Origin: a virus
Lineage: Duplodnaviria > Caudoviricetes
Strand: one strand, 5' to 3'
Virus record (IMG/VR): IMGVR_UViG_3300047560_001024
Span: 1 to 57,610 of that record
Length of the DNA: 57,610 nt
Shown: in pieces, positions 1,319-15,131 of the stretch
Layout of the letters: every line of letters starts with the position of its first letter
Numbering within the stretch: position 1 is the first letter of the stretch
The notes under the pieces: model-generated
What the model saw: the letters and a program-made list of their open reading frames with translations, nothing else
What the model was told of the DNA's origin: nothing
Databases searched by the model: none
Program-made: the position numbers and the translations under genes

Positions 1319-2000
1319 TCCAGCAAAGTATAGCTGTGAGTTTTGTAATCGAGGGTTCTCCAGAGAAAAAACTATTGTCTCACATATTTGCGAGACAAAA
1401 TCACGCTGGCTAAACAGGGACAACAAAGGCAATAGACTAGGGTTTCAATCTTGGTTGCAGTTTTATCAAAAGAACTCAATGAGTAAGACTAAGAACAAGA
1501 CTGTTGAAGAATTCATTCGCAGTCCTTACTATACTGCTTTTGCAAAGTTTGGTTCTTATTGTGCAGATGCTAATGTTATAAACGTAAGCAGATATGTCGA
1601 TTGGCTACTAAAGAATCAGATTAAACTTGATGTTTGGAATACTGATTCTACCTATACCCGTTTCTTAATTGAGTACCTTAGGGTTGAGGATGCCTTTGAT
1701 GCGATACACCGTAGTGTAGAATATTGTATCTCCCAAAGTGAGAACGAAAGTATTCAACCCAAAGATGTGTTACGGTACGGCAACAGCAACCGAATCTGTC
1801 ATGCCATCACAACGGGCAAAATAAGTCCATGGATGTTGTATTGCAGTGACAGTGGTATCCATTTTCTAGAGACATTAAATGAAACCCAAGTTAAAATAGT
1901 ATCTGATTACATTAATCCAGAACAATGGGCATTGAAGTTTCACCGTGAACCAGAACTTAAAAAACAAATCAACGACACCCTCACATTGGCGGGGTACTAG
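1275..2000 (+). CDS. hypothetical protein with N-terminal zinc finger
   Basis: CEFC-x12-HIC motif; 241 aa. Confidence 0.75.
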   Translation: MKKSNNTSENSVTINPAKYSCEFCNRGFSREKTIVSHICETKSRWLNRDNKGNRLGFQSWLQFYQKNSMSKTKNKTVEEFIRSPYYTAFAKFGSYCADANVINVSRYVDWLLKNQIKLDVWNTDSTYTRFLIEYLRVEDAFDAIHRSVEYCISQSENESIQPKDVLRYGNSNRICHAITTGKISPWMLYCSDSGIHFLETLNETQVKIVSDYINPEQWALKFHREPELKKQINDTLTLAGY

Positions 2001-2184
2001 AGTTCGCCTTGATTGGCGTGATGGGCGTGACGATACAGAAGCATGGAATGAAATCTGTGCTTGGGCCATTGAACAATATGGAATGCCTGGTACAAAGTTT
2101 TCTTGGCATCCAATGATTGATTATATGGATTTTTATTTCTATGACGAAAAAGATGCTATTCATTTTAGCTTGAGGTGGTTATGA
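1945..2184 (+). CDS. FxLRW-family small protein
   Basis: AWAIEQYG; ends FYFYDEKDAIHFSLRWL; GTG start. Confidence 0.8.
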   Translation: MNQNLKNKSTTPSHWRGTRVRLDWRDGRDDTEAWNEICAWAIEQYGMPGTKFSWHPMIDYMDFYFYDEKDAIHFSLRWL

Positions 2185-2408
2185 ATTCATTACAACGCAG
2201 ACAACATAAACGAAAAACTGAACATACTATTGTCCTAAGAAACGAAACTGAAAAATACTATCAGTTCGACATGAAGATAGAAAAGGCTAAGAAGTTTTGT
2301 AAAAGAAAATGCAAGGGCTTTTGGATGCATGAAACTGACTGGAACAAAGTTACCTTTAGATTTCAAAAAGAAAGCGATGCAGTATATTTTGGATTGATGT
2401 GGCTATGA
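2181..2408 (+). CDS. FxLRW-family small protein
   Basis: ATGA overlap, GAGGTG SD; ends FRFQKESDAVYFGLMWL. Confidence 0.85.
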   Translation: MNSLQRRQHKRKTEHTIVLRNETEKYYQFDMKIEKAKKFCKRKCKGFWMHETDWNKVTFRFQKESDAVYFGLMWL

Positions 2409-2842
2409 ACTTAAATCACTTAACAGATAATGAACTTATTGACCACGTCATAAAGTATGACACTGATCCTATACGAGTACGACTTGCTACTCACATGCAA
2501 CGAGTGCATGGTGCAATCATCGATGATTTGGTATTTGCCGGCATGGATGATGTGTGGTGTACTTTTAATAGTGTTGTCAATGGTGGAGAATATCATTCAG
2601 GCGATTACATCAGACACCTTGAAAATGAGATTGAGTACCTGCAGAACGAAGTAAGTCAGAATCTCAGAGAGATTGAAAACTTAAAAGCACGAACTATCAT
2701 GGATTTGATTGGTGAACTCAAACAAGAGATTAAGACAGCAGAGTGGTGCAGGGACGAAGCAATCAGAGAACGAAACCATGCTAAAGAGCATGAAAGTATT
2801 ATGAAAAATAAACTTGACATGTGGGCAATATTGAACCGATGA
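2405..2842 (+). CDS. hypothetical coiled-coil protein (non-family insert in array)
   Basis: ATGA overlaps at both ends; heptad-like C-terminal half. Confidence 0.75.
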   Translation: MNLNHLTDNELIDHVIKYDTDPIRVRLATHMQRVHGAIIDDLVFAGMDDVWCTFNSVVNGGEYHSGDYIRHLENEIEYLQNEVSQNLREIENLKARTIMDLIGELKQEIKTAEWCRDEAIRERNHAKEHESIMKNKLDMWAILNR

Positions 2843-3060
2843 GTTACGCTGATAGTTTAATTCAAAAGTGGTATGAAGAAAAAGAGATAAATGAAACATA
2901 CTGGCCCTATCAACATCAAATTAAAGACTGGAAACATATCTATACTGTTGAAAGATTTTGCTATGATAATTTTAAGAGTAAGAACTGGCGCAACCGCGGT
3001 CGTACATTTGCATTCAAGCGCAAACAAGATTATGAATGGTTCTTGTTGAGGTGGCAATGA
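2839..3060 (+). CDS. FxLRW-family small protein
   Basis: ends FAFKRKQDYEWFLLRWQ. Confidence 0.85.
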   Translation: MSYADSLIQKWYEEKEINETYWPYQHQIKDWKHIYTVERFCYDNFKSKNWRNRGRTFAFKRKQDYEWFLLRWQ

Positions 3061-3305
3061 TAGACTTAGACCTTGTAAAAACGATAGTAGCTAGGCAGGG
3101 ACAGAATGAGTTTCTGAAAAACCCTATCGTATTACCACCCGAAGCAAAAGTTGTAACTGGTAAAATCAAAGAAGATGCTTACTTGCATTTTCTAGAAACT
3201 AAATGCGGTGTAGAGGTACTGTTGTCAGATTATCATAACGAAATAATTGGGTACAATGTTATTGATGAAAAGAAGTTTTCTTGGTTCGTATTGAGGTGGA
3301 GTTGA
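3057..3305 (+). CDS. FxLRW-family small protein (IDExK subtype)
   Basis: HFLETKCG; ends YNVIDEKKFSWFVLRWS. Confidence 0.85.
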   Translation: MIDLDLVKTIVARQGQNEFLKNPIVLPPEAKVVTGKIKEDAYLHFLETKCGVEVLLSDYHNEIIGYNVIDEKKFSWFVLRWS

Positions 3306-3583
3306 TGGAATATTTTTACGGTGGCGGCGGAAACAATCGCCCAGTTTTTATATACAGATTCAAAGTGAAAAGTTGTACTCCTACAATGTACAGCTGGGCT
3401 GAAGCCTACCCAGAGAAGGGACCCTTCAGTCGTTTTCATATTGAGTGGCAAAGTGTTTACAGTAAGATGGATAGCCCTAGAGAATATGATGTAATACAGT
3501 TTGAGCATAGTGATGCCGCTAAAGTATTCAGAATCGCATTTGCAGGTGAGTATGAAGATATATCTATGGACGGATATAGATGA
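3305..3583 (+). CDS. divergent FxLRW-family-like protein
   Basis: TGATG overlap; IQFEHSDAAKVFRIAF plus short extension. Confidence 0.7.
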   Translation: MEYFYGGGGNNRPVFIYRFKVKSCTPTMYSWAEAYPEKGPFSRFHIEWQSVYSKMDSPREYDVIQFEHSDAAKVFRIAFAGEYEDISMDGYR

Positions 3584-3894
3584 AAATAGTATGGGGCAGA
3601 AGCATAAACTTCAACATAGAGCTACACAAGGCACGTATGAGTTACAACGGCGCAAACAAATTTAATCCTAGTCCAGGAAAGCAGTACATGGAATACACAA
3701 TCATAACCGATGGTGCAGACTGCTACCCTTGGCACGAATACTTTGCTATCTTGCCACGCAAGACAATTAGTGGTACTCGCATCTTCTGGGAGAAAGCATA
3801 CAAGCGTAAAGTATGGGTAGTGTGGGGCACAGGCTTTCATATGGAACCTGAAACTCAATACGCAACAGCATTTGACTTATTGACGCACGAATGA
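3580..3894 (+). CDS. hypothetical protein (non-family insert)
   Basis: ATGA overlaps both ends; WHEYFAILPRKTISG..IFWEKAYKRK. Confidence 0.75.
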   Translation: MKIVWGRSINFNIELHKARMSYNGANKFNPSPGKQYMEYTIITDGADCYPWHEYFAILPRKTISGTRIFWEKAYKRKVWVVWGTGFHMEPETQYATAFDLLTHE

Positions 3895-4166
3895 AAACTA
3901 GAAACGAATTCACCCGAGTAGAGCACTTCTCTAAATCTAAAACATGGGTTCATTGGAAAAACATGAAAAAGATGAAAGAGATTTATGAGAAACAGTATAC
4001 TGGTTACTATGAGCCAACCACTACCGGCAAGGGCGATAGCTTTGATAAGTGGATTGAAAAGGAATGTGGTATAAAAATATTGTTTGATCCTTACGGCAAC
4101 GTACTAATGGACTTTGATATTATCGATGAAGGTAAGTACATGATGTATGTACTTAAGTACCTATGA
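3891..4166 (+). CDS. FxLRW-family small protein (IDExK subtype)
   Basis: KWIEKECG; ends FDIIDEGKYMMYVLKYL. Confidence 0.8.
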   Translation: MKTRNEFTRVEHFSKSKTWVHWKNMKKMKEIYEKQYTGYYEPTTTGKGDSFDKWIEKECGIKILFDPYGNVLMDFDIIDEGKYMMYVLKYL

Positions 4167-5344
4167 AGATACTTGTGTTAGGTAGAATACCCTCAGCACA
4201 TTTTATGTCTATGCTATTAGCTAAGTCTAATACTGTATATCATTATGGGGCAAACATATCGTATCAGGTTACAGACAACTACATCCCTATTCCTACTAAA
4301 GAAACATATGGCTACTTGATTGGATGTATTGATAAGATAGATTTCGATTTGATTGTCCCTATGCAAATTGAATATCAAATGTCGCATGAATTACGTGAAG
4401 CAATTGATAAGAAGAACATACCCTGCTTCATGCCGTCATACGAGAATACTATGCTTGAGTGGGATAGAGTTAAAACTAAAACAATGTTAGATGAACTTAA
4501 CATACCCACACCTAAGTATTCTGTTATGAATAAGGATGAGTTGTTAAGTAAGTTTACAACTTTGCCTCGCCCCTTTGTATTAAAATGTAACATGTTCTGG
4601 AATGAGGGTGCTCAAACAGTGATTGTCACTGACGATAACTACCAAGCTGAATTAGTTAAGTGCAAAGATAATAATGATGTTGATACCTACGTGATAGATG
4701 AATATATCACTGGGAACGAAATATCATACCATGCTGTATGTAATGGTTCTGAATTCGTCTATATCGGTTCTGCACGAGACTACAAGAAGTTCGAAAACGG
4801 AGATAAAGGATTCAACACAGAAGGAATAGGGTCGTATAGTAACAGTGACCGTTTCTATATCGTTGACCAGTATGCACAAAAAATTGTAGATTACTTGTCA
4901 CAGAAGGGCACGCCTTATGTTGGTATACTTTATCTAGGTATAATTATTGATAAAGACAACGTTCCGTTTGTTCTTGAAATTAATACAAGATTTGGGTGCC
5001 CAGAATCATTGGCTATTCTTTCTACCATAATTACTGATATGTCAACTGTGATGTACAATGCCGCAATTGGTAAAAAGATTCCAGAAATCACGTTCACCGA
5101 TAGTAAAGCAGTTACAGTAATGGTTGTGCCCAAAGATTATCAATATGACCCTGATGCTAATAAACCAATCTTTAATGACATACCGGTAGATATAGTGTAT
5201 AATAGACCCGGATACAGTAGTTGTCACGCATTTACCGTAACTGGTAGCACAGTAGATGAGGCTAGTAAGAAGCTATATTCTTACTTAGATTCGCAGTCTA
5301 TGGGTGACTATGTATATCGCACTGATATAGGTTTTATGAAATGA
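4163..5344 (+). CDS. divergent PurD-like (phosphoribosylamine-glycine ligase family) ATP-grasp protein
   Basis: MKILVLG start; ARDYKKFENGDKGFNTEGIGSYS; PYVGILYLG; LEINTRFGCPE; terminal YRTDIG. Confidence 0.85.
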   Translation: MKILVLGRIPSAHFMSMLLAKSNTVYHYGANISYQVTDNYIPIPTKETYGYLIGCIDKIDFDLIVPMQIEYQMSHELREAIDKKNIPCFMPSYENTMLEWDRVKTKTMLDELNIPTPKYSVMNKDELLSKFTTLPRPFVLKCNMFWNEGAQTVIVTDDNYQAELVKCKDNNDVDTYVIDEYITGNEISYHAVCNGSEFVYIGSARDYKKFENGDKGFNTEGIGSYSNSDRFYIVDQYAQKIVDYLSQKGTPYVGILYLGIIIDKDNVPFVLEINTRFGCPESLAILSTIITDMSTVMYNAAIGKKIPEITFTDSKAVTVMVVPKDYQYDPDANKPIFNDIPVDIVYNRPGYSSCHAFTVTGSTVDEASKKLYSYLDSQSMGDYVYRTDIGFMK

Positions 5345-5784
5345 AATTACGTCTTAAAGCACGTTGGCGACAATATCTTGCTCACCGCAAGTTAGCAAAG
5401 AGTGGCTATCTTTCTTGGCGTGCGTATCGTCATAACCGTGACCCTGATATTGTGCGTTACGCTGACAAAGTAAGTGACTTCTACAAAAACTACAAATATG
5501 TGTACATGTGTGAGCATGGCACAGCACATTATGCTTACAGCGTAGTACATGATTGTGGTCCAGGTGGATTAGTATTCGGTTATGAAGAAATGCGTGATTG
5601 GTGTGAAAGTAAATGTAGATTCAAGTATCGTGTAGACATTCATAGAGGGTTGAAACAAACTGGTCTAGGTATTAACGGTGAAGAATATCCTGAATGGTAC
5701 TTTAACGATATCGGTGGAAGAGACATTGTATTCTTTGCTTTCATGGATGAGCAAGATTACTTGATGTTTAGGTTGAGGTGGTGA
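5341..5784 (+). CDS. FxLRW-family protein, long form
   Basis: EMRDWCESKC; ends FFAFMDEQDYLMFRLRW. Confidence 0.85.
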   Translation: MKLRLKARWRQYLAHRKLAKSGYLSWRAYRHNRDPDIVRYADKVSDFYKNYKYVYMCEHGTAHYAYSVVHDCGPGGLVFGYEEMRDWCESKCRFKYRVDIHRGLKQTGLGINGEEYPEWYFNDIGGRDIVFFAFMDEQDYLMFRLRW

Positions 5785-6170
5785 TGACACAATATTACGA
5801 TCCTAAAATAGCCGTTAATGTAACAGCAACGGCTCAGAAAATACTCATGCCTATGATTAGGAATTTGTATCCACAAATGTTAGCCCAATCTATTCTAGGT
5901 GTACAACCTATGACAGGATCAGTGGGCGAGATTTTTACCATGCGAGCCAGCTACAAACCACAATCAAAATACAAATTCAGTCGTGCTAAATGGTACTACG
6001 CAGACCATCGCTATGAAGATTATGATGCTATCATAGCATGGTGTACTGAACAGTTTGGACCGCGCCCTAAACACCCTGATGCATGGACACGATGGGTTGA
6101 TGAACACATTGACCGTATTAAATTCCGTGACGAAAAAGATTATGCTTGGTTTATGTTGAGGTGGGGATGA
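5784..6170 (+). CDS. FxLRW-family protein fused to a major-capsid-protein (Gol-region) fragment
   Basis: ILMPMIRNLYPQMLAQSILGVQPMTGSVGEIFTMRASY then AWCTEQFG...IKFRDEKDYAWFMLRWG. Confidence 0.85.
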   Translation: MTQYYDPKIAVNVTATAQKILMPMIRNLYPQMLAQSILGVQPMTGSVGEIFTMRASYKPQSKYKFSRAKWYYADHRYEDYDAIIAWCTEQFGPRPKHPDAWTRWVDEHIDRIKFRDEKDYAWFMLRWG

Positions 6171-6430
6171 TGCAAGAACCTTATTTTGTTAGAGAAAGAT
6201 TCATCGTTCCTGTAGGCAGACTGTGGGCAGAACCTTGGCCTAAGTATTTTGACAACTTTTGGAACACTTGTTCTGTTACTGCTAGATTGAATGGTTGGGC
6301 TCCTATTACTGTTGCTAACTATGAACTTAAACCATTAGGTGGTAAACTGATTCAAACTAAAACACAAGGCTGGTACTTACGTTGGGATGATGAAAAGCAT
6401 CACGCATTTTTTGTATTGAAATGGTCATGA
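6167..6430 (+). CDS. FxLRW-family small protein
   Basis: ends YLRWDDEKHHAFFVLKWS. Confidence 0.8.
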   Translation: MMQEPYFVRERFIVPVGRLWAEPWPKYFDNFWNTCSVTARLNGWAPITVANYELKPLGGKLIQTKTQGWYLRWDDEKHHAFFVLKWS

Positions 6431-6663
6431 AAATTGAAATTAAATACGTGCCAGGCAAAAGACCATATCATATTGACGTTCAATGGCGCACAACTAATGA
6501 TTGGAGCTCGTCTCAGGCGTATACATGGTGCATGAAAACATTCGGTCATAGAAACGAGAAGTATGACAACCCTCGTTGGTATGCTAACACTAGATACTTT
6601 ACAGGTGACTTTAAGTTTCGTGACAAAAAAGATGCTGAATGGTTCTTGTTGAGGTGGGGATGA
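6427..6663 (+). CDS. FxLRW-family small protein
   Basis: TWCMKTFG...PRWY...FKFRDKKDAEWFLLRWG. Confidence 0.85.
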   Translation: MKIEIKYVPGKRPYHIDVQWRTTNDWSSSQAYTWCMKTFGHRNEKYDNPRWYANTRYFTGDFKFRDKKDAEWFLLRWG

Positions 6664-6845
6664 ATAGAAAACAAGCGAAATTCAGAGTTCCGTTTAAACG
6701 CACTAACAACTGGTGGGGCGGTGACTGGGCCGACATATCTAATTGGTGTCGCACCAATAATATAGGTCGTTGGGATTACATGAATGAAGAATTTTGGTTT
6801 ACGGAAGAACAAGATTATGTATGGTTTAAGTTGAGGTGGTTATGA
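6660..6845 (+). CDS. FxLRW-family small protein
   Basis: NWCRTNNIGRW...FWFTEEQDYVWFKLRWL. Confidence 0.85.
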   Translation: MNRKQAKFRVPFKRTNNWWGGDWADISNWCRTNNIGRWDYMNEEFWFTEEQDYVWFKLRWL

Positions 6846-7039
6846 AGCAATATGGAATAGCTATTGAGAGTTGGCCTGCTACACGTAAAGTAGATGTTAA
6901 ATGGTGGCTGCTTGAAAACTTTGGACCTGAAGACTCTCCTACACAAAAGGGGCGTTGGGGCTGTGCGTATGACTATGGTTTAGACAATATCTATATGAAT
7001 GAAGATGTTTTTATAATGTATCAATTGAGGTGGAGTTAA
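6842..7039 (+). CDS. FxLRW-family small protein
   Basis: WWLLENFG...GRW...IYMNEDVFIMYQLRWS. Confidence 0.8.
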   Translation: MKQYGIAIESWPATRKVDVKWWLLENFGPEDSPTQKGRWGCAYDYGLDNIYMNEDVFIMYQLRWS

Positions 7040-7242
7040 TGGAACATCAACGATACGGACAATATACTAGTAACTGGACTAATGTTATTGTAGACCCAGC
7101 ATGGCGCGAACCAATCAAAGGTGAACATATTGCTTGGCTAAAAGCACACGAAGGTGGGTACTATCATCTTCATCGTAATGCCACTGCTGTTAAGTTTGAG
7201 CGCAAAGAAGATGCTGAATGGTTTATACTGAGGTGGCTATGA
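7039..7242 (+). CDS. FxLRW-family small protein
   Basis: TAATG overlap; ends VKFERKEDAEWFILRWL. Confidence 0.85.
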   Translation: MEHQRYGQYTSNWTNVIVDPAWREPIKGEHIAWLKAHEGGYYHLHRNATAVKFERKEDAEWFILRWL

Positions 7243-7556
7243 TTACAAGTATTTGGTATCACATAGAAGATAATAGACCCACTAAAACAGGTTATTACCT
7301 TGCTTATAAGAAGCCGTCTCTGGGAGACGATAGTGAAGGGTACGGTGTATATTACTGGGATAATGAGTATACCGATTGGAGGGAGTCGGCGGCCCCTCAT
7401 TCTTATGGTATGAGAGTTACTCTTTGGTCAGAACTACCGGCACATGATCCATATGATTCTACTACACATGCACCCACTATCGCAGAAGTTGATGCTTGGA
7501 ATAATGTCGTAGATGCTATTGACAAATTTAATATGATAAAAGAATTGGGTAGATAA
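7239..7556 (+). CDS. hypothetical protein, DUF551-like pattern (non-family insert)
   Basis: WYHIEDNRP..TGYYL...VTLWSELP resembles WI.V..RLP...VTHW.PLP. Confidence 0.7.
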   Translation: MITSIWYHIEDNRPTKTGYYLAYKKPSLGDDSEGYGVYYWDNEYTDWRESAAPHSYGMRVTLWSELPAHDPYDSTTHAPTIAEVDAWNNVVDAIDKFNMIKELGR

Positions 7557-7903
7557 TGCTAGAAACGATAAACAGACTGTTAAAGCTATTCGGTGGCAAG
7601 GTTCAAGAACAAGCAACCGAAAAGTTTACTAAACCCGGTGACCCATTTAGCCCATTCAAAATAGAAAACGGGATGGTTGGGTTCAAGCCTTACCTAATCG
7701 TTGAGAATCAAAATGAAACCGTGTTATACTCTAATCATAATTGCATAGCGATTGATGTTAGCCCGAATGTTGAACAATGGATACTTACTCAACCTCCCCA
7801 CATGTGGAAGTATGCAGAAGAAACAGATGGTTGTCATTATGCTATGACACGAATTTTAGTGAATGAAGAATTATTAACCTGGATGACATTAAGATGGCTG
7901 TAA
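7556..7903 (+). CDS. FxLRW-family protein
   Basis: VEQWILTQP..MW; ends ILVNEELLTWMTLRWL. Confidence 0.8.
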   Translation: MLETINRLLKLFGGKVQEQATEKFTKPGDPFSPFKIENGMVGFKPYLIVENQNETVLYSNHNCIAIDVSPNVEQWILTQPPHMWKYAEETDGCHYAMTRILVNEELLTWMTLRWL

Positions 7904-8169
7904 AAACTGTTGAAGATAATTTGATGGAAGATATGATGGATGAAGTTGGCAGACAAATTGCCAAAGAGATAGACGAAGGAATCATGTCAACTATGCTAGT
8001 TCAAACTGGCTGGACACCTGTTCAATTTTATTTTAAGAATGGAGAACAAGCAGTTGATATTCAATTCTGGCTGAACGACACTTGTAAGGGTAAGTATCGT
8101 AGATTAGGTAGTGAATACTTGTTTGAACACAAACAAGAAGCAGAGTGGTTTATACTACGATGGGCATGA
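7894..8169 (+). CDS. FxLRW-family protein with acidic N-terminal helix
   Basis: EDMMDEVGRQIAKEIDEGIM; ends YLFEHKQEAEWFILRWA. Confidence 0.8.
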   Translation: MAVKTVEDNLMEDMMDEVGRQIAKEIDEGIMSTMLVQTGWTPVQFYFKNGEQAVDIQFWLNDTCKGKYRRLGSEYLFEHKQEAEWFILRWA

Positions 8170-8423
8170 ATATAAGTGAAGGTCGTGTATACGGGTCACG
8201 CTACTATACCGTCGAACCTGAAATCTCTTGGGATCCTACTAATGATTGGGGTAGTATAGACAAGTGGGCAAGAATGGAAAAATGGTGTATCGATACATAC
8301 GGTTCGACTGGAGAGATATGGGGTGACGACCCTGCCATCTTACATCGTTGGTATATGAATGGTGCTAAATTTTGGTTTAGAGAGAAAAAAGATTTAGAAT
8401 GGTTTATGTTAAGATGGCAATGA
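8166..8423 (+). CDS. FxLRW-family small protein
   Basis: KWCIDTYG...HRWY...FWFREKKDLEWFMLRWQ. Confidence 0.85.
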   Translation: MNISEGRVYGSRYYTVEPEISWDPTNDWGSIDKWARMEKWCIDTYGSTGEIWGDDPAILHRWYMNGAKFWFREKKDLEWFMLRWQ

Positions 8424-8683
8424 AAGAAATTAAAGAACTAGGTAGTTTCAGCTATTGGACTGAGCATTATTACGGTAGCCAGCGAAATATCACTACTATT
8501 AGTTGGAAAGGCAAGGGCGAAGTTGATAGTAGAGAAATTTATAAATGGTGTAAGAAAACATTTGGTAAGAGTGGCTACAGAGAAGATATCGAAGATAGTT
8601 ATTGGGTTGACAATACTGAGTTTGGAGAAATCATGCTATGCAAAGATGAATTCGTTACGGCGTTTCTATTGAGATGGACATGA
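8420..8683 (+). CDS. FxLRW-family small protein
   Basis: KWCKKTFG; ends KDEFVTAFLLRWT. Confidence 0.85.
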   Translation: MKEIKELGSFSYWTEHYYGSQRNITTISWKGKGEVDSREIYKWCKKTFGKSGYREDIEDSYWVDNTEFGEIMLCKDEFVTAFLLRWT

Positions 8684-8898
8684 GTGTCACGATTAAACTT
8701 AACGGTAGATTAGGCCCACATGAAGAACAGTGGTTAGCAAAGAACGTTGGCCCTCGTTTGCACTACCTACACAACAGCGTAGGTGGACAAGGTTGGATCG
8801 CTAGACATGACTGGACTAAAGATAATACTATGCAATGGACTCTTACGTTAGAGAATGAAAGCTATGCTAGTTTCTTTATATTACAGTTTCCGCAATGA
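8680..8898 (+). CDS. FxLRW-family small protein (divergent)
   Basis: QWLAKNVGP; ends LTLENESYASFFILQFPQ. Confidence 0.8.
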   Translation: MSVTIKLNGRLGPHEEQWLAKNVGPRLHYLHNSVGGQGWIARHDWTKDNTMQWTLTLENESYASFFILQFPQ

Positions 8899-9113
8899 TA
8901 GAAGTTAAGGCACTTGATTGGATCCCCAGTCAGGGAATAGAAGTAGTCAATGCTCTCAGAGAAAAAGGCTACGTTATGGGCAGAGACTTCGAATGGGAAT
9001 ATCATAAACCCAAATATGATGACATTACTTACGAAGCAGTGTATAATAGATATATCCTATTCCGATTCTATGAAGATGAATTAGCAACATGGTTTAGTTT
9101 AAGGTATCTATAA
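8895..9113 (+). CDS. FxLRW-family small protein
   Basis: ends FRFYEDELATWFSLRYL. Confidence 0.85.
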   Translation: MIEVKALDWIPSQGIEVVNALREKGYVMGRDFEWEYHKPKYDDITYEAVYNRYILFRFYEDELATWFSLRYL

Positions 9114-13031: not shown

Positions 13032-14466
13032 ACAAATAGAATACACACCAGACGTACAGAAGTTATTTTTGCGAATGATGCTTACTAACGCCGAGTTGTA
13101 TACTCGGGTTATGAACATTATGAACAGTGAGAACTTTGACAAGAGCCTTCGCCCCGTAGCGGAGATGTTTAAAGAACACACTGACAAATATAAAGTGTTA
13201 CCTGATGTAACACAGATTCAAGCAATGACTGGGATAGAGATTGAAACTATTCCTGAATTGAATGAAGGTCATAATGATTGGTTCTTAGATGCATTCGAAG
13301 CATTTACTAAGCGCCAAGAACTTGAACGAGCAATTCTTAAAGCAGCCGACATGCTTGAGAAGGGCGACTTCGCTCCTGTTGAAAAGTTAATCAAAGACGC
13401 AGTGCAAATCAGTTTACAAAAAGACATGGGTACTGATTACTTTGCTGACCCTAAGGCACGTATCAACAAGTATTTTAACGCAGGTGGACAAGTATCTACT
13501 GGCTGGCCACAGATGGACAAGATTCTATATGGTGGTATGTCACGTGGTGAATTGAATATCTTCGCAGGTGGTTCAGGTTCGGGTAAGTCTCTTGTTATGA
13601 TGAACTTAGCATTGAACTGGTTGCAAGTAGGTATGAGTGGTGTTTACATTACACTTGAATTGTCAGAAGAACTAACCAGTTTGCGTACTGATGCGATGTT
13701 GACTGAAACCGGTACTAAGATGATTCGTAAAGATATCGATACTACTGACTTGAAAGTTAGAATGGTCGGAAAGAACTCGGGTAAGTATCGTGTTAAAGCA
13801 TTACCAGCACAATCAAACGTTAATGACATTCGTTCATACTTAAAAGAAGTACAGATTCAGACAGGTATCAAAGTTGACTTTGTGATGGTTGACTACTTAG
13901 ACTTGGTTATGCCAGTATCTGTTAAAGTTAACCCTAACGACCAGTTTATTAAAGACAAGTATGTAGCAGAAGAATTGCGTAACTTAGCTAAAGAGATGGG
14001 TATTTTGTTAGTTACAGCGTCACAGTTGAATCGCTCTGCTGTTGATGAAATCGAATTCGACCACAGTCACATTGCAGGTGGTATCTCAAAGATTAACACA
14101 GCAGATAACGTGTTTGGTATCTTCACAAGTCGCAGTATGCGTGAGCGTGGTAAGTATCAGATTCAGTGTATGAAGTCACGTAGTTCGACAGGTGTTGGTA
14201 TGAAGATTGACTTGGATTACGACATGGAAACTATGCGTATCTCAGACAGCGATCCTGACGGGTATGCTGACCAGCAAGCAAAATATCGCCCCTCACCTAG
14301 TCCCAACGATATTATGAGCCAGTTGAAACCACAATCAACACTGAATTCGTCTGAGCCGATAATTGACCAGACAACAGGGGAAGTTTTACAGCCCCTAGAG
14401 AAAAAAGTCGTAGTAGACGTTCAGGGTAGCAAGCTAAAAGCAATGCTAAACAATCTGAAAAAGTGA
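13009..14466 (+). CDS. replicative DNA helicase (DnaB/T4 gp41-like)
   Basis: Walker A GGSGSGKS, ITLEL, MVDYLDL, TASQLNR, KSR. Confidence 0.95.
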   Translation: MANKTDSKQIEYTPDVQKLFLRMMLTNAELYTRVMNIMNSENFDKSLRPVAEMFKEHTDKYKVLPDVTQIQAMTGIEIETIPELNEGHNDWFLDAFEAFTKRQELERAILKAADMLEKGDFAPVEKLIKDAVQISLQKDMGTDYFADPKARINKYFNAGGQVSTGWPQMDKILYGGMSRGELNIFAGGSGSGKSLVMMNLALNWLQVGMSGVYITLELSEELTSLRTDAMLTETGTKMIRKDIDTTDLKVRMVGKNSGKYRVKALPAQSNVNDIRSYLKEVQIQTGIKVDFVMVDYLDLVMPVSVKVNPNDQFIKDKYVAEELRNLAKEMGILLVTASQLNRSAVDEIEFDHSHIAGGISKINTADNVFGIFTSRSMRERGKYQIQCMKSRSSTGVGMKIDLDYDMETMRISDSDPDGYADQQAKYRPSPSPNDIMSQLKPQSTLNSSEPIIDQTTGEVLQPLEKKVVVDVQGSKLKAMLNNLKK

Positions 14467-15113: not shown

Positions 15114-15131
15114 ACCGCTATAAATATCTAC

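What the first reader, a model, noticed from the sequence alone, without database searches (positions are those of the whole stretch)
5841..5954. Major-capsid (Gol-peptide-like) fragment fused to an array member: candidate capsid decoy
Seen: ILMPMIRNLYPQMLAQSILGVQPMTGSVGEIFTMRASY at the N-terminus of a 128 aa FxLRW protein. From memory, the T4 gp23 Gol peptide is AVMGMVRRAIPNLIAFDICGVQPMNSPTG followed by QVFALRAVY; ungapped alignment gives 12 of 29 identities including GVQPM. Gol binds EF-Tu and activates the Lit abortive-infection protease. Inference: an early-expressed copy of this capsid segment may decoy capsid-sensing defences or target EF-Tu.
Basis: partly seen in the sequence, partly recalled or inferred. 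Interest (0 to 1): 0.88.

Follow-up and report, generated by a model that had tools for sequence, protein, structure and literature searches.

The report
Capsid Gol-segment copy on phage mini-protein
An uncultured freshwater jumbo phage keeps, under selection, a 128-residue gene that joins a loose copy of the most conserved stretch of its T4-type capsid protein (the stretch that in T4 binds host EF-Tu) to a small undescribed domain shared by a tandem gene array; its function is untested.

Summary
Window 5784-6170 (+) encodes a 128-aa protein. Its residues 15-70 match Pfam Gp23 (E 2.2e-12, above the curated cut-off).

It is not a one-off relic. More than 60 relatives keep the segment, and its dN/dS is 0.06-0.16. 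AlphaFold2 models it as flexible, attached to a confidently folded C-terminal domain. That domain belongs to a large, unannotated family of small phage proteins (1,791 cluster representatives).

New here:
- The same ~26-residue core sits on at least three different subfamilies of the array domain.
- The same C-domain subfamily carries alternative N-terminal modules. One resembles the catalytic loop of the phage's own ribonucleotide reductase.

So this is a portable peptide module.

The decoy/EF-Tu reading remains untested. Early expression is inferred only. I found no paper describing the family.

This scan found the same family twice before on other DNA (e1-6066550, e1-5358976).

Best guess (0.35): a mimic of nascent capsid protein that engages whatever reads that motif.

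The parts
5784..6170 (+). Whole gene: 128 codons plus stop. It encodes a Gol-like N-terminal segment followed by an array-type C-terminal domain.
   Evidence: ORF and translation. (homologues of about 128 aa, 40-96% identical). Homologues start MTQ/MTH, which places the start at ATG 5784.
5826..5954 (+). Residues 15-57: the segment homologous to the N-arm/Gol region of T4-type major capsid protein.
   Evidence: Pfam Gp23 E 2.2e-12. 47% identity over 43 aa to residues 55-97 of the capsid protein of relative G001. dN/dS 0.06-0.16. pLDDT 50-63.
5841..5927 (+). Residues 20-48: the core that aligns to T4 gp23 residues 94-122. This is the unit shared by the different fusion types.
   Evidence: ungapped alignment to T4 gp23. 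(types 2 and 3 share only this core).
5967..6167 (+). Residues 62-128: folded C-terminal domain of the 'KYKFSRAKW...WFxLRW' subfamily of the array domain.
   Evidence: AlphaFold2 pLDDT 86-93, strand-helix-strand-strand-helix. Array profile E 2.7e-16. No Pfam or PHROG family. No convincing fold match.
5773..5786 (+). Junction with the upstream array gene. Its last codons TTG AGG TGG TGA (L R W stop) contain a GAGGTGG Shine-Dalgarno-like string, and the stop overlaps the ATG (TGATG).
   Evidence: Read directly. Translational coupling is inferred.
1945..9113 (+). Tandem array of 17 small genes ending in a [FWY]x[LIV][RK][WFY] motif. It is interrupted by a few unrelated genes, including the ATP-grasp gene at 4163-5344.
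   Evidence: 17 stop-to-stop ORFs with the motif. (profile hits).
7556..7903 (+). Window orthologue of the 'type 2' Gol fusion. Here the Gol-like N-terminus has degenerated and there is no GVQPM.
   Evidence: Alignment A3: 16 of 16 non-window members keep IPILRK..P..IA.DIVGVQPM and the window member does not. No Pfam hit.

Best explanation
The gene encodes an accessory protein, probably expressed early or in the middle period. It displays a free, flexible copy of the capsid protein's Gol/N-arm core on a small stable carrier domain.

The peptide is a portable module. It has been placed on several different carrier subfamilies, and it keeps the residues that are conserved in real capsid proteins even though the rest of the capsid fold is absent. 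The simplest reading is that it works in trans as a mimic of newly made capsid protein. It would bind the same cellular reader as that stretch of gp23 before the capsid protein itself is made.

The most likely purpose is to occupy or jam a host sensor that reads this short motif. The carrier domain would keep the complex from being productive.

Shown: homology, conservation, selection, modularity, and predicted disorder of the peptide.
Inferred: trans-binding, the partner, the timing and the purpose.
For: (1) Homology to gp23 residues 85-133 / 94-132 is significant.

(2) Purifying selection acts on the segment itself. dN/dS is 0.058, 0.157 and 0.108 in the three pairs where dS is not saturated, against 0.13-0.21 for the C-domain.

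(3) The segment is only 41-47% identical to the capsid protein of the closest complete relative. The copy is therefore old and maintained, not a recent accident.

(4) In the AlphaFold2 model the segment has pLDDT 50-63 and the C-domain 86-93. That fits a displayed peptide.

(5) The same core sits on at least three array-domain subfamilies:
- type 1: 70 of the 121 proteins examined;
- type 2: 21 proteins, 16 of 16 aligned non-window members;
- type 3: P0173, Pfam Gp23 E 6.2e-8, 32.9 bits.
What the types share is only the ~26-residue core that aligns to T4 gp23 94-122.

(6) It is accessory, not core. G002 (81% complete) has a capsid gene but no second Gp23 match, and the window's own type 2 copy has lost the motif.

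(7) According to a T4 review (PMC3014915, passages read), a 29-residue region of gp23 defines Gol, binds EF-Tu domains II-III, and is the most conserved part of gp23. A 2026 Nature paper (PMC13581612, passages read) says Lit and CapRel detect the capsid protein through short sequence motifs.

(8) None of the window's 4 TATAAATA sites lies in the array.
Against: No binding, expression or phenotype data exist for any member.

In T4, Gol bound to EF-Tu activates Lit. A mimic would be harmful in a Lit-type host unless its carrier blocks cleavage, and that is pure inference.

EF-Tu is very abundant (6-10% of the proteome according to the bioRxiv version of the 2026 Nature paper, 10.64898/2026.01.04.697583). 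Titrating EF-Tu itself is therefore implausible.

The same stretch of gp23 also has assembly roles. In T4 it is disordered in the prohead and thought to contact the scaffold, and later it forms the N-arm, with Met98 near the portal (PMC9546572, passages read). Conservation could therefore reflect an assembly partner.

The host is unknown and no cultured phage carries the gene.

The alternative N-terminal modules, such as the RNR-loop-like one, are not explained by EF-Tu binding.
Confidence: 0.35

Rival explanations
1. Head-assembly modulator. The N-arm mimic binds the scaffold, portal or capsomers of the phage's own head, or of a competing related phage. It would tune or poison assembly, or it would get the carrier packaged as an internal protein.
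For: In T4 the corresponding gp23 stretch is disordered and faces the scaffolding core in the unexpanded head. It then forms the N-arm with intra- and inter-capsomer contacts, and Met98 lies near the portal whiskers (PMC9546572, passages read). The conserved positions in the fusion are the ones conserved in capsid proteins.
Against: The gene lies in an array that runs the same way as replication genes, far from head genes. In G001 the head genes are at 283-286 kb and the fusions at 13.5 and 201 kb. None of the window's TATAAATA sites lies in the array. The gene is dispensable in relatives. The same carrier takes modules that have nothing to do with heads.
Confidence: 0.17
2. EF-Tu docking for translation take-over, not defence. 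The Gol core tethers the carrier domain to EF-Tu or the ribosome to modulate host translation early in infection.
For: According to the T4 review, Gol binding inhibits the GTPase of EF-Tu domain I. The Gol core is the only unit shared by the fusion types.
Against: EF-Tu is very abundant. The carrier domain has no recognisable RNA- or ribosome-related fold: best Z 5.5, generic alpha/beta sandwiches. There are no data.
Confidence: 0.13
3. By-product of cassette shuffling. Recombination within the array and with core genes pasted a capsid fragment in front of an array gene. The fragment has no function of its own.
For: The array is highly recombinogenic. Window versus L007: the C-domain has dS 0.30 while the Gol segment is saturated (pS 0.75). 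P0024 joins a near-native capsid N-terminus, 90% identical to real capsid genes, to the same C-domain. Contigs of other runs join 5765 to 6149 and 5781 to 6168, skipping exactly this gene (weak evidence, since likeness was set at 85% and gene ends are repeated).
Against: dN/dS is 0.06-0.16 on the fragment itself. 70 of the 121 relatives examined keep the motif, down to about 50% overall identity. The same core is kept on three carrier subfamilies.
Confidence: 0.06

Closest known systems
Gol region of T4 gp23: a 29-residue peptide inside the major capsid protein that acts as cofactor of the e14 Lit protease through EF-Tu
   Same: Homologous sequence. Window residues 20-58 align without gaps to gp23 94-132, including GVQPM. 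According to the T4 review it is the most conserved stretch of gp23.
   Different: In T4 the peptide is an internal part of the late capsid protein. Here it is a separate gene product fused to an unrelated small domain, in an array with replication-type neighbours. EF-Tu binding and Lit activation are not tested. The residue numbers 93-122 usually quoted for Gol are recalled, not taken from a call.
Pfam PF07068 Gp23 (T4-type HK97-fold major capsid proteins)
   Same: The match scores above the curated cut-off (47.5 bits against 24.4).
   Different: Only profile positions 2-57 of 376 are present. There is no P or A domain, so this is not a capsid protein. The real capsid gene of relative G001 is a 398-aa ORF elsewhere in that genome.
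Phage mimic or decoy anti-defence proteins, such as the DNA mimic Ocr (recalled) and TifA of T4 (named in PMC13728456)
   Same: Small accessory proteins that could act by occupying a host factor. They are variable in presence or absence between relatives.
   Different: I found no known case that copies a piece of the phage's own capsid protein. No inhibitory activity is shown here.
Stand-alone 'spare part' copies of a conserved enzyme segment: GrcA/YfiD and T4 Y06I, the autonomous glycyl-radical domains. The names come from scan note e1-1901840 and from recall.
   Same: A short, highly conserved segment of a large protein is encoded as a separate small gene.
   Different: Those replace a damaged domain of the parent enzyme. 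A capsid N-arm or an RNR active-site loop cannot obviously be replaced in trans. Not tested.
Small-gene cassettes of the hyperplastic regions of T4-type genomes (recalled)
   Same: Tandem, same-strand, overlapping small early-type ORFs. Cassette-level gain and loss occurs between relatives.
   Different: Here 17 or more members share one C-terminal domain. tblastn with this protein and with one array member (window 6421-6660) found that domain in none of the 50,697 phage records.

Membership tests
Pfam PF07068 Gp23 / T4-type major capsid protein | Sequence match above the curated gathering score | tested here: met
   47.5 bits against 24.4, E 2.2e-12. Same region found in the genome search.
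Pfam PF07068 Gp23 / T4-type major capsid protein | Full HK97-type body, with most of the 376 profile positions and a length of about 400-520 aa | tested here: not met
   Only profile positions 2-57 are matched and the protein is 128 aa. Residues 62-128 are an unrelated small alpha/beta domain. It is a fragment, not a capsid protein.
Gol peptide (functional element of T4 gp23) | Homology to the 29-residue Gol stretch of gp23 | tested here: met
   Ungapped alignment of residues 20-58 to gp23 94-132, with 12 of the first 29 identical. Profile alignment to gp23 85-133.
Gol peptide (functional element of T4 gp23) | Binds EF-Tu domains II-III | not testable with these tools
   This needs a binding assay. 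See Tried and rejected for the one computational attempt.
Gol peptide (functional element of T4 gp23) | Makes EF-Tu cleavable by a Lit-type protease | not testable with these tools
   This needs an in vivo or in vitro cleavage assay. The host and its defence genes are unknown.
'...WFxLRW' array domain (undescribed family) | C-terminal domain matches the array profile and ends at the protein's C-terminus | tested here: met
   E 2.7e-16 to a profile of 34 array C-termini. The family has 1,791 representatives at E<=1e-3. The 150 listed are 54-156 aa and nearly all matches end at the C-terminus.
'...WFxLRW' array domain (undescribed family) | Sits in a same-strand tandem array with overlapping stop and start codons | tested here: met
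   17 members lie at 1945-9113. There is a TGATG overlap at 5782-5786.
Phage anti-defence decoy | Expressed before the trigger it mimics | not tested
   Indirect evidence only: none of the window's TATAAATA sites lies in the array, sigma-70-like sites are present, and the neighbours are replication genes.
Phage anti-defence decoy | Binds or blocks a defined host sensor | not testable with these tools
   The host and the sensor are unknown.

The most novel reading that the evidence does not exclude
The array may be a motif-display repertoire. Its members would use one family of small carrier domains to present, as free N-terminal peptides, copies of the most conserved linear motifs of the phage's own core proteins. 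The Gol core of the capsid protein is firmly supported. The Cys-loop of ribonucleotide reductase NrdA has moderate support. DNA polymerase B motifs A and B and a helicase-type P-loop are only suggestive. Such peptides could jam host sensors or proteases that read those motifs in nascent phage proteins. That would be a polyvalent anti-sensor decoy system with no described precedent.
Probability: 0.15. Interest if true: 0.92.

Novelty: categorically new. Interest (0 to 1): 0.72.

Why it matters
Bacterial immunity often senses conserved phage proteins. According to the papers read, Lit and CapRel read short motifs of the capsid protein. A phage gene family that keeps a free copy of exactly such a motif on a carrier would be a new class of counter-measure, or a new way of engaging EF-Tu.

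It would also bear on a question left open in the T4 literature: why the Gol stretch is the most conserved part of gp23. In the fusion the capsid body is absent yet the same residues stay conserved. That separates constraints from a trans-acting partner from constraints of the capsid fold.

The modular N-termini also offer a natural library of peptides for finding what host factors read in phage proteins.

Tried and rejected
**EF-Tu co-fold.** I sent E. coli EF-Tu (a stand-in host) with residues 1-62 of the family alignment. The verdict was 'no answer': score 0.01 against a mark of 0.32, and the controls were not run. This is no evidence either way.

**Expression.** The only RNA run (X24) held 5% of the sampled words. 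Its single contig (402 nt, under 90% alike) lies on 5247-5645, not on the fusion gene. Nothing can be said about transcription. The small-share DNA runs are fragments of relatives and I draw no habitat claim from them beyond the runs' own labels.

**Fold of the C-domain.** Foldseek against the PDB gave 0 matches at E<=1e-3. VIA-align wide gave best Z 5.5, 5.2, 5.2 to unrelated alpha/beta domains, below the tool's stated noise level. The ESM Atlas returned only the family's own cluster, score 0.78.

**Longer fused forms of the C-domain.** None were found among proteins of 225-2000 aa. The tool itself calls this weak evidence.

**Idea that every array N-terminus is a piece of a core protein.** Not supported as a general rule.
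- blastp of 54 array members of the window and G001 against 303 large ORFs gave significant hits only for the three Gol fusions.
- In the array-wide sample, 16 of 63 N-extensions had a hit at E<0.05: 7 to the capsid protein, 1 to NrdA, and the rest singletons at noise level. The control rate was 6 of 193.

**RNR-loop module.** A profile of 24 N-termini found G001 NrdA residues 437-454 as top hit, E 6.3e-6 among 303 ORFs. P0158 alone gave E 3.1e-6. Against the whole PDB, however, the same family profile reached only E 1.2 for an RNR chain. I call the support moderate.

**Other modules.**
- Helicase Walker-A and prohead-protease N-terminus hits had E about 0.007 each and are ambiguous. Pfam DnaB_C scored E 0.0034 for P0105, below the cut-off.
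- The polymerase-B motif B module scored E 7.8e-4, but I had selected those segments with a regex containing part of the motif, so the test is partly circular.
- The motif A-like module gave no profile hit at E<0.05.
- The 'second capsid helix' at 7894-7998 (scan note e1-6296858) had no Pfam Gp23 hit at E<=1 and a profile domain E of 25 on the capsid helix. Only the G003 relative matched, at E 7.4e-4. This is inconclusive.

**RiPP or ligase link to the ATP-grasp gene at 4163-5344.** G001 has the syntenic array but no homologue of that gene. I dropped the idea.

**Single-linkage clustering of N-extensions.** It merged 158 of 225 sequences into one cluster and was uninformative.

**Literature.** Searches and passages read turned up no description of a stand-alone Gol-like gene. 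The primary Gol papers were not held, so the 13 critical Gol residues could not be compared.

Full report
**What is there.** The window is a 57,610-base IMG/VR virus record that CheckV rates 15% complete. Bases 5784-6170 (+) encode a 128-aa protein. Its ATG overlaps the stop of the upstream gene: TTG AGG TGG TGA TG, that is L R W stop plus Met. The last codons of the upstream gene contain a GAGGTGG Shine-Dalgarno-like string.

**Is the capsid similarity real?** Yes.
- Pfam Gp23 matches residues 15-70 to profile positions 2-57 of 376, at E 2.2e-12 and 47.5 bits (cut-off 24.4).
- PHROG 138 (major head protein) gives E 6.5e-12.
- Against all PDB sequences, the single protein aligns residues 20-58 without gaps to T4 gp23 94-132 (E 7.7e-4).
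- The family profile aligns to gp23 85-133.
- tblastn against 50,697 phage records found 807 records. All hits fell on the N-terminal part of ordinary capsid genes, and none covered 80% of the query. The fusion is therefore absent from sequenced cultured phages.

**Is it a one-off?** No. A search of 5.8 billion proteins returned 128 relatives (120 listed). Many are about 128 aa, 40-96% identical over the full length, carry a precomputed PF07068 hit, and come from contigs of up to 364 kb. In an alignment of 37 of them the stretch ILMPxIRxxxPxxLAQxILGVQPMTGxVGxIFT is conserved.

Nei-Gojobori estimates on six coding sequences give these dN/dS values for the Gol-like codons, in the three pairs where dS is not saturated:
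- 0.058 (window versus L006),
- 0.157 (window versus G001),
- 0.108 (L006 versus G001).

The C-domain gives 0.13-0.21.

**The phage.** The complete relative G001 (364,247 bp, with terminal repeats) has one full capsid gene, a 398-aa ORF next to a 365-aa ORF that I take to be the scaffold gene from its position and composition. Its capsid protein is 66% identical to those of Vibrio phage 2.275.O and Pseudomonas phage PA5oct. The window's segment is 47% identical over 43 residues to residues 55-97 of that capsid protein. G001's own fusion is 41% identical to it. The copy is therefore old and evolves on its own.

**Structure.** AlphaFold2 with the 37-row alignment gives a confident C-terminal domain: residues about 65-128, pLDDT 86-93, with the order strand-helix-strand-strand-helix. 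The N-terminal part has low confidence (pLDDT 50-63). Fold searches find only generic small alpha/beta domains: 0 Foldseek matches at E<=1e-3 and best VIA-align Z 5.5. Ten array members have no Pfam or PHROG family.

**The array and its family.** The window holds 17 small same-strand ORFs at 1945-9113 that end in the WFxLRW-type motif. G001 holds about 35 in several arrays. A profile of 28 members finds 1,791 cluster representatives at E<=1e-3 among 1.84 billion. The 150 listed are 54-156 aa, and nearly all carry the match at the C-terminal end. One typical member finds nothing in cultured phages.

**New point 1: the Gol core is a portable module.**
- G001 carries a second fusion at 13,507-13,854 on a different array subfamily (Pfam Gp23 E 6.4e-7, 29.5 bits).
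- That 'type 2' family has 21 members. 16 of the 16 aligned non-window members keep IPILRK..P..IA.DIVGVQPM. The window's orthologue at 7556-7903 has lost it.
- A third subfamily, related to window ORF 2821-3060, carries the core in P0173 (E 6.2e-8, 32.9 bits). P0200 (23.1 bits) and P0238 (19.1 bits, a further subfamily) fall just under the cut-off. Of the 10 proteins scanned, 8 showed Gp23 at E<=1 and 2 showed nothing.
- What the types share is only the ~26-residue core that aligns to T4 gp23 94-122.

**New point 2: the same C-domain takes other N-terminal modules.** Of the 121 proteins sharing the KYKFSRAKW subfamily, by regex:
- 68 carry the GVQPM-type module,
- 32 carry an NLCxEI module,
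- 2 carry both,
- 19 carry neither.

The sample was seeded with a Gol-type query, so these shares are biased.

The NLCxEI..LP.KP module resembles the catalytic-cysteine loop of G001's own class I ribonucleotide reductase: IYQSNLCCEILLPTKS at residues 437-454 of a 774-aa ORF. I identified that ORF as NrdA by its sequence and by recall. A profile of 24 such N-termini ranks that site first among 303 large ORFs (E 6.3e-6), and P0158 alone gives E 3.1e-6. A whole-PDB search reaches only E 1.2. I call the support moderate.

Other modules resemble a helicase-type P-loop and DNA polymerase B motifs A and B. G001's polymerase has DINSLYP and KILLNSAYG. These similarities are statistically weak or partly circular. 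The polymerase motif names are recalled.

In G001, four nearby genes at 200.8-202.4 kb carry, in order, polymerase-A-like, P-loop-like, RNR-loop-like and Gol-like N-termini; one gene with no recognised module separates the last two.

The general claim that all array N-termini are copies of core proteins is not supported.

**Recombination.**
- Window versus L007: the C-domain is close (dS 0.30, pN 0.024) while the Gol segment is saturated (pS 0.75, pN 0.22). The module has been exchanged.
- P0024 (167 aa, one contig) joins a capsid N-terminus, propeptide included and 90% identical to real capsid genes, to the same C-domain just after GVQPMTG. It is either a recent recombinant or an assembly chimera.
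- Contigs from two other runs join 5765 to 6149 and 5781 to 6168, skipping exactly this gene. This is weak evidence, because likeness was set at 85% and the gene ends are repeated.

**Timing.** The window's 4 TATAAATA sites (about the number expected by chance) are at 15119, 34432, 44876 and 48236, and none is in the array. Sigma-70-like sites are somewhat more frequent than in shuffled sequence (58 against 41.3, sd 5.8). One 11-of-12 match lies at 5175-5203. The array's flanks are replication-type genes. Early or middle expression is inferred, not shown.

**What is known about the parent stretch.**
- The T4 review PMC3014915 (passages read) says a 29-residue region of gp23 defines Gol. It binds EF-Tu domains II-III, prefers EF-Tu-GDP, inhibits the GTPase, and makes EF-Tu cleavable by Lit. 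It is the most conserved part of gp23.
- PMC9546572 (passages read) says the gp23 N-terminus up to L106 is disordered in the unexpanded head and probably contacts the scaffold. After expansion it forms the N-arm and N-fist.
- PMC13581612 (passages read) says Lit and CapRel detect the capsid protein through short motifs. It also says STAND sensors exist for capsid protein, DNA polymerase and helicase/RecA-type ATPases.

**Reading.** The capsid body is absent, yet the same residues stay conserved. The peptide is predicted to be flexible. It is portable between carriers and dispensable in some relatives (G002, 81% complete, has only its capsid gene).

The best-supported view is a trans-acting mimic of nascent capsid protein. 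Its partner is most likely the one known for T4 (EF-Tu, and through it a motif-reading sensor). I put this at 0.35. The rivals are an assembly modulator at 0.17, EF-Tu docking for translation control at 0.13, and a functionless by-product at 0.06. The remainder is unknown.

The boldest reading not excluded is that the array is a repertoire of displayed core-protein motifs acting as polyvalent decoys (0.15).

**Novelty.** I found no paper describing such a gene (searches; a November 2026 editorial on phage counter-measures, passages read). The scan had noted the same family twice on other genomes, with similar verdicts. The multi-carrier distribution and the alternative modules had not been noted before: the word NLCKEI was found in no earlier finding.

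Noticed in passing
Relatives P0045-P0121 and P0143-P0285; G001 200,333-202,390 (L023/L036): N-termini of the KYKFSRAKW subfamily are mosaics of short modules. One is Y..NLCxEI.LP.KP, which resembles the catalytic-cysteine loop of the phage's own NrdA (top hit, E 6.3e-6 among 303 ORFs). Others resemble a helicase-type P-loop and DNA polymerase B motifs A and B, with weak support. Four nearby array genes of G001 each carry a different such module.
   Followed up: partly
P0024 (167 aa, single 4.5-kb contig): A near-native capsid N-terminus, propeptide included and 90% identical to real capsid genes, is joined just after GVQPMTG to the array C-domain. It is either a recent recombinant between gene 23 and the fusion gene or an assembly chimera.
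   Followed up: partly
window 5784-6170 versus L007 5998-6333: The C-domain is nearly identical (dS 0.30, pN 0.024) but the Gol segment is saturated (pS 0.75, pN 0.22). The N-terminal module has been swapped by recombination between otherwise close alleles.
   Followed up: yes
window 5765-6168: Contigs of two other metagenome runs join 5765 to 6149 and 5781 to 6168, skipping exactly the fusion gene. This suggests cassette-level presence or absence at this slot. The evidence is weak: likeness was set at 85% and the gene ends are repeated.
   Followed up: partly
window 5773-5786 and the other array junctions (e.g. 6161-6172): The conserved last codons L-R-W (TTG AGG TGG) contain a GAGGTGG Shine-Dalgarno-like string for the next gene, and stop and start codons overlap. 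Part of the nucleotide conservation at gene ends may serve translational coupling.
   Followed up: no
window 7556-7903: This is the orthologue of the 'type 2' Gol fusion. In this phage the Gol-like N-terminus has decayed, while 16 of 16 aligned relatives keep it.
   Followed up: yes
window 7894-7998: The helix ...QIAKEIDEGIMSTM resembles the capsid-protein helix LAQEITAEIDQEILLSL of G001, and similar N-termini recur in other family members. Statistical support is lacking: no Pfam hit, and only a G003 relative matches Gp23 positions 171-198 at E 7.4e-4.
   Followed up: partly
window 4163-5344: The PurD-like ATP-grasp gene embedded in the array has no homologue in the complete relative G001, whose array is otherwise syntenic. 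It is probably a separate insertion and not a partner of the array proteins.
   Followed up: partly
G001 283,387-286,357 (L019): The head module of the clade consists of a 398-aa T4-type capsid gene, a 365-aa ORF that I take to be the scaffold gene, and an ORF that I take to be the prohead protease (by position and sequence; no family scan was run). Only one full Gp23-family gene was found, so no separate gp24-like vertex paralogue was detected by the Pfam model.
   Followed up: no
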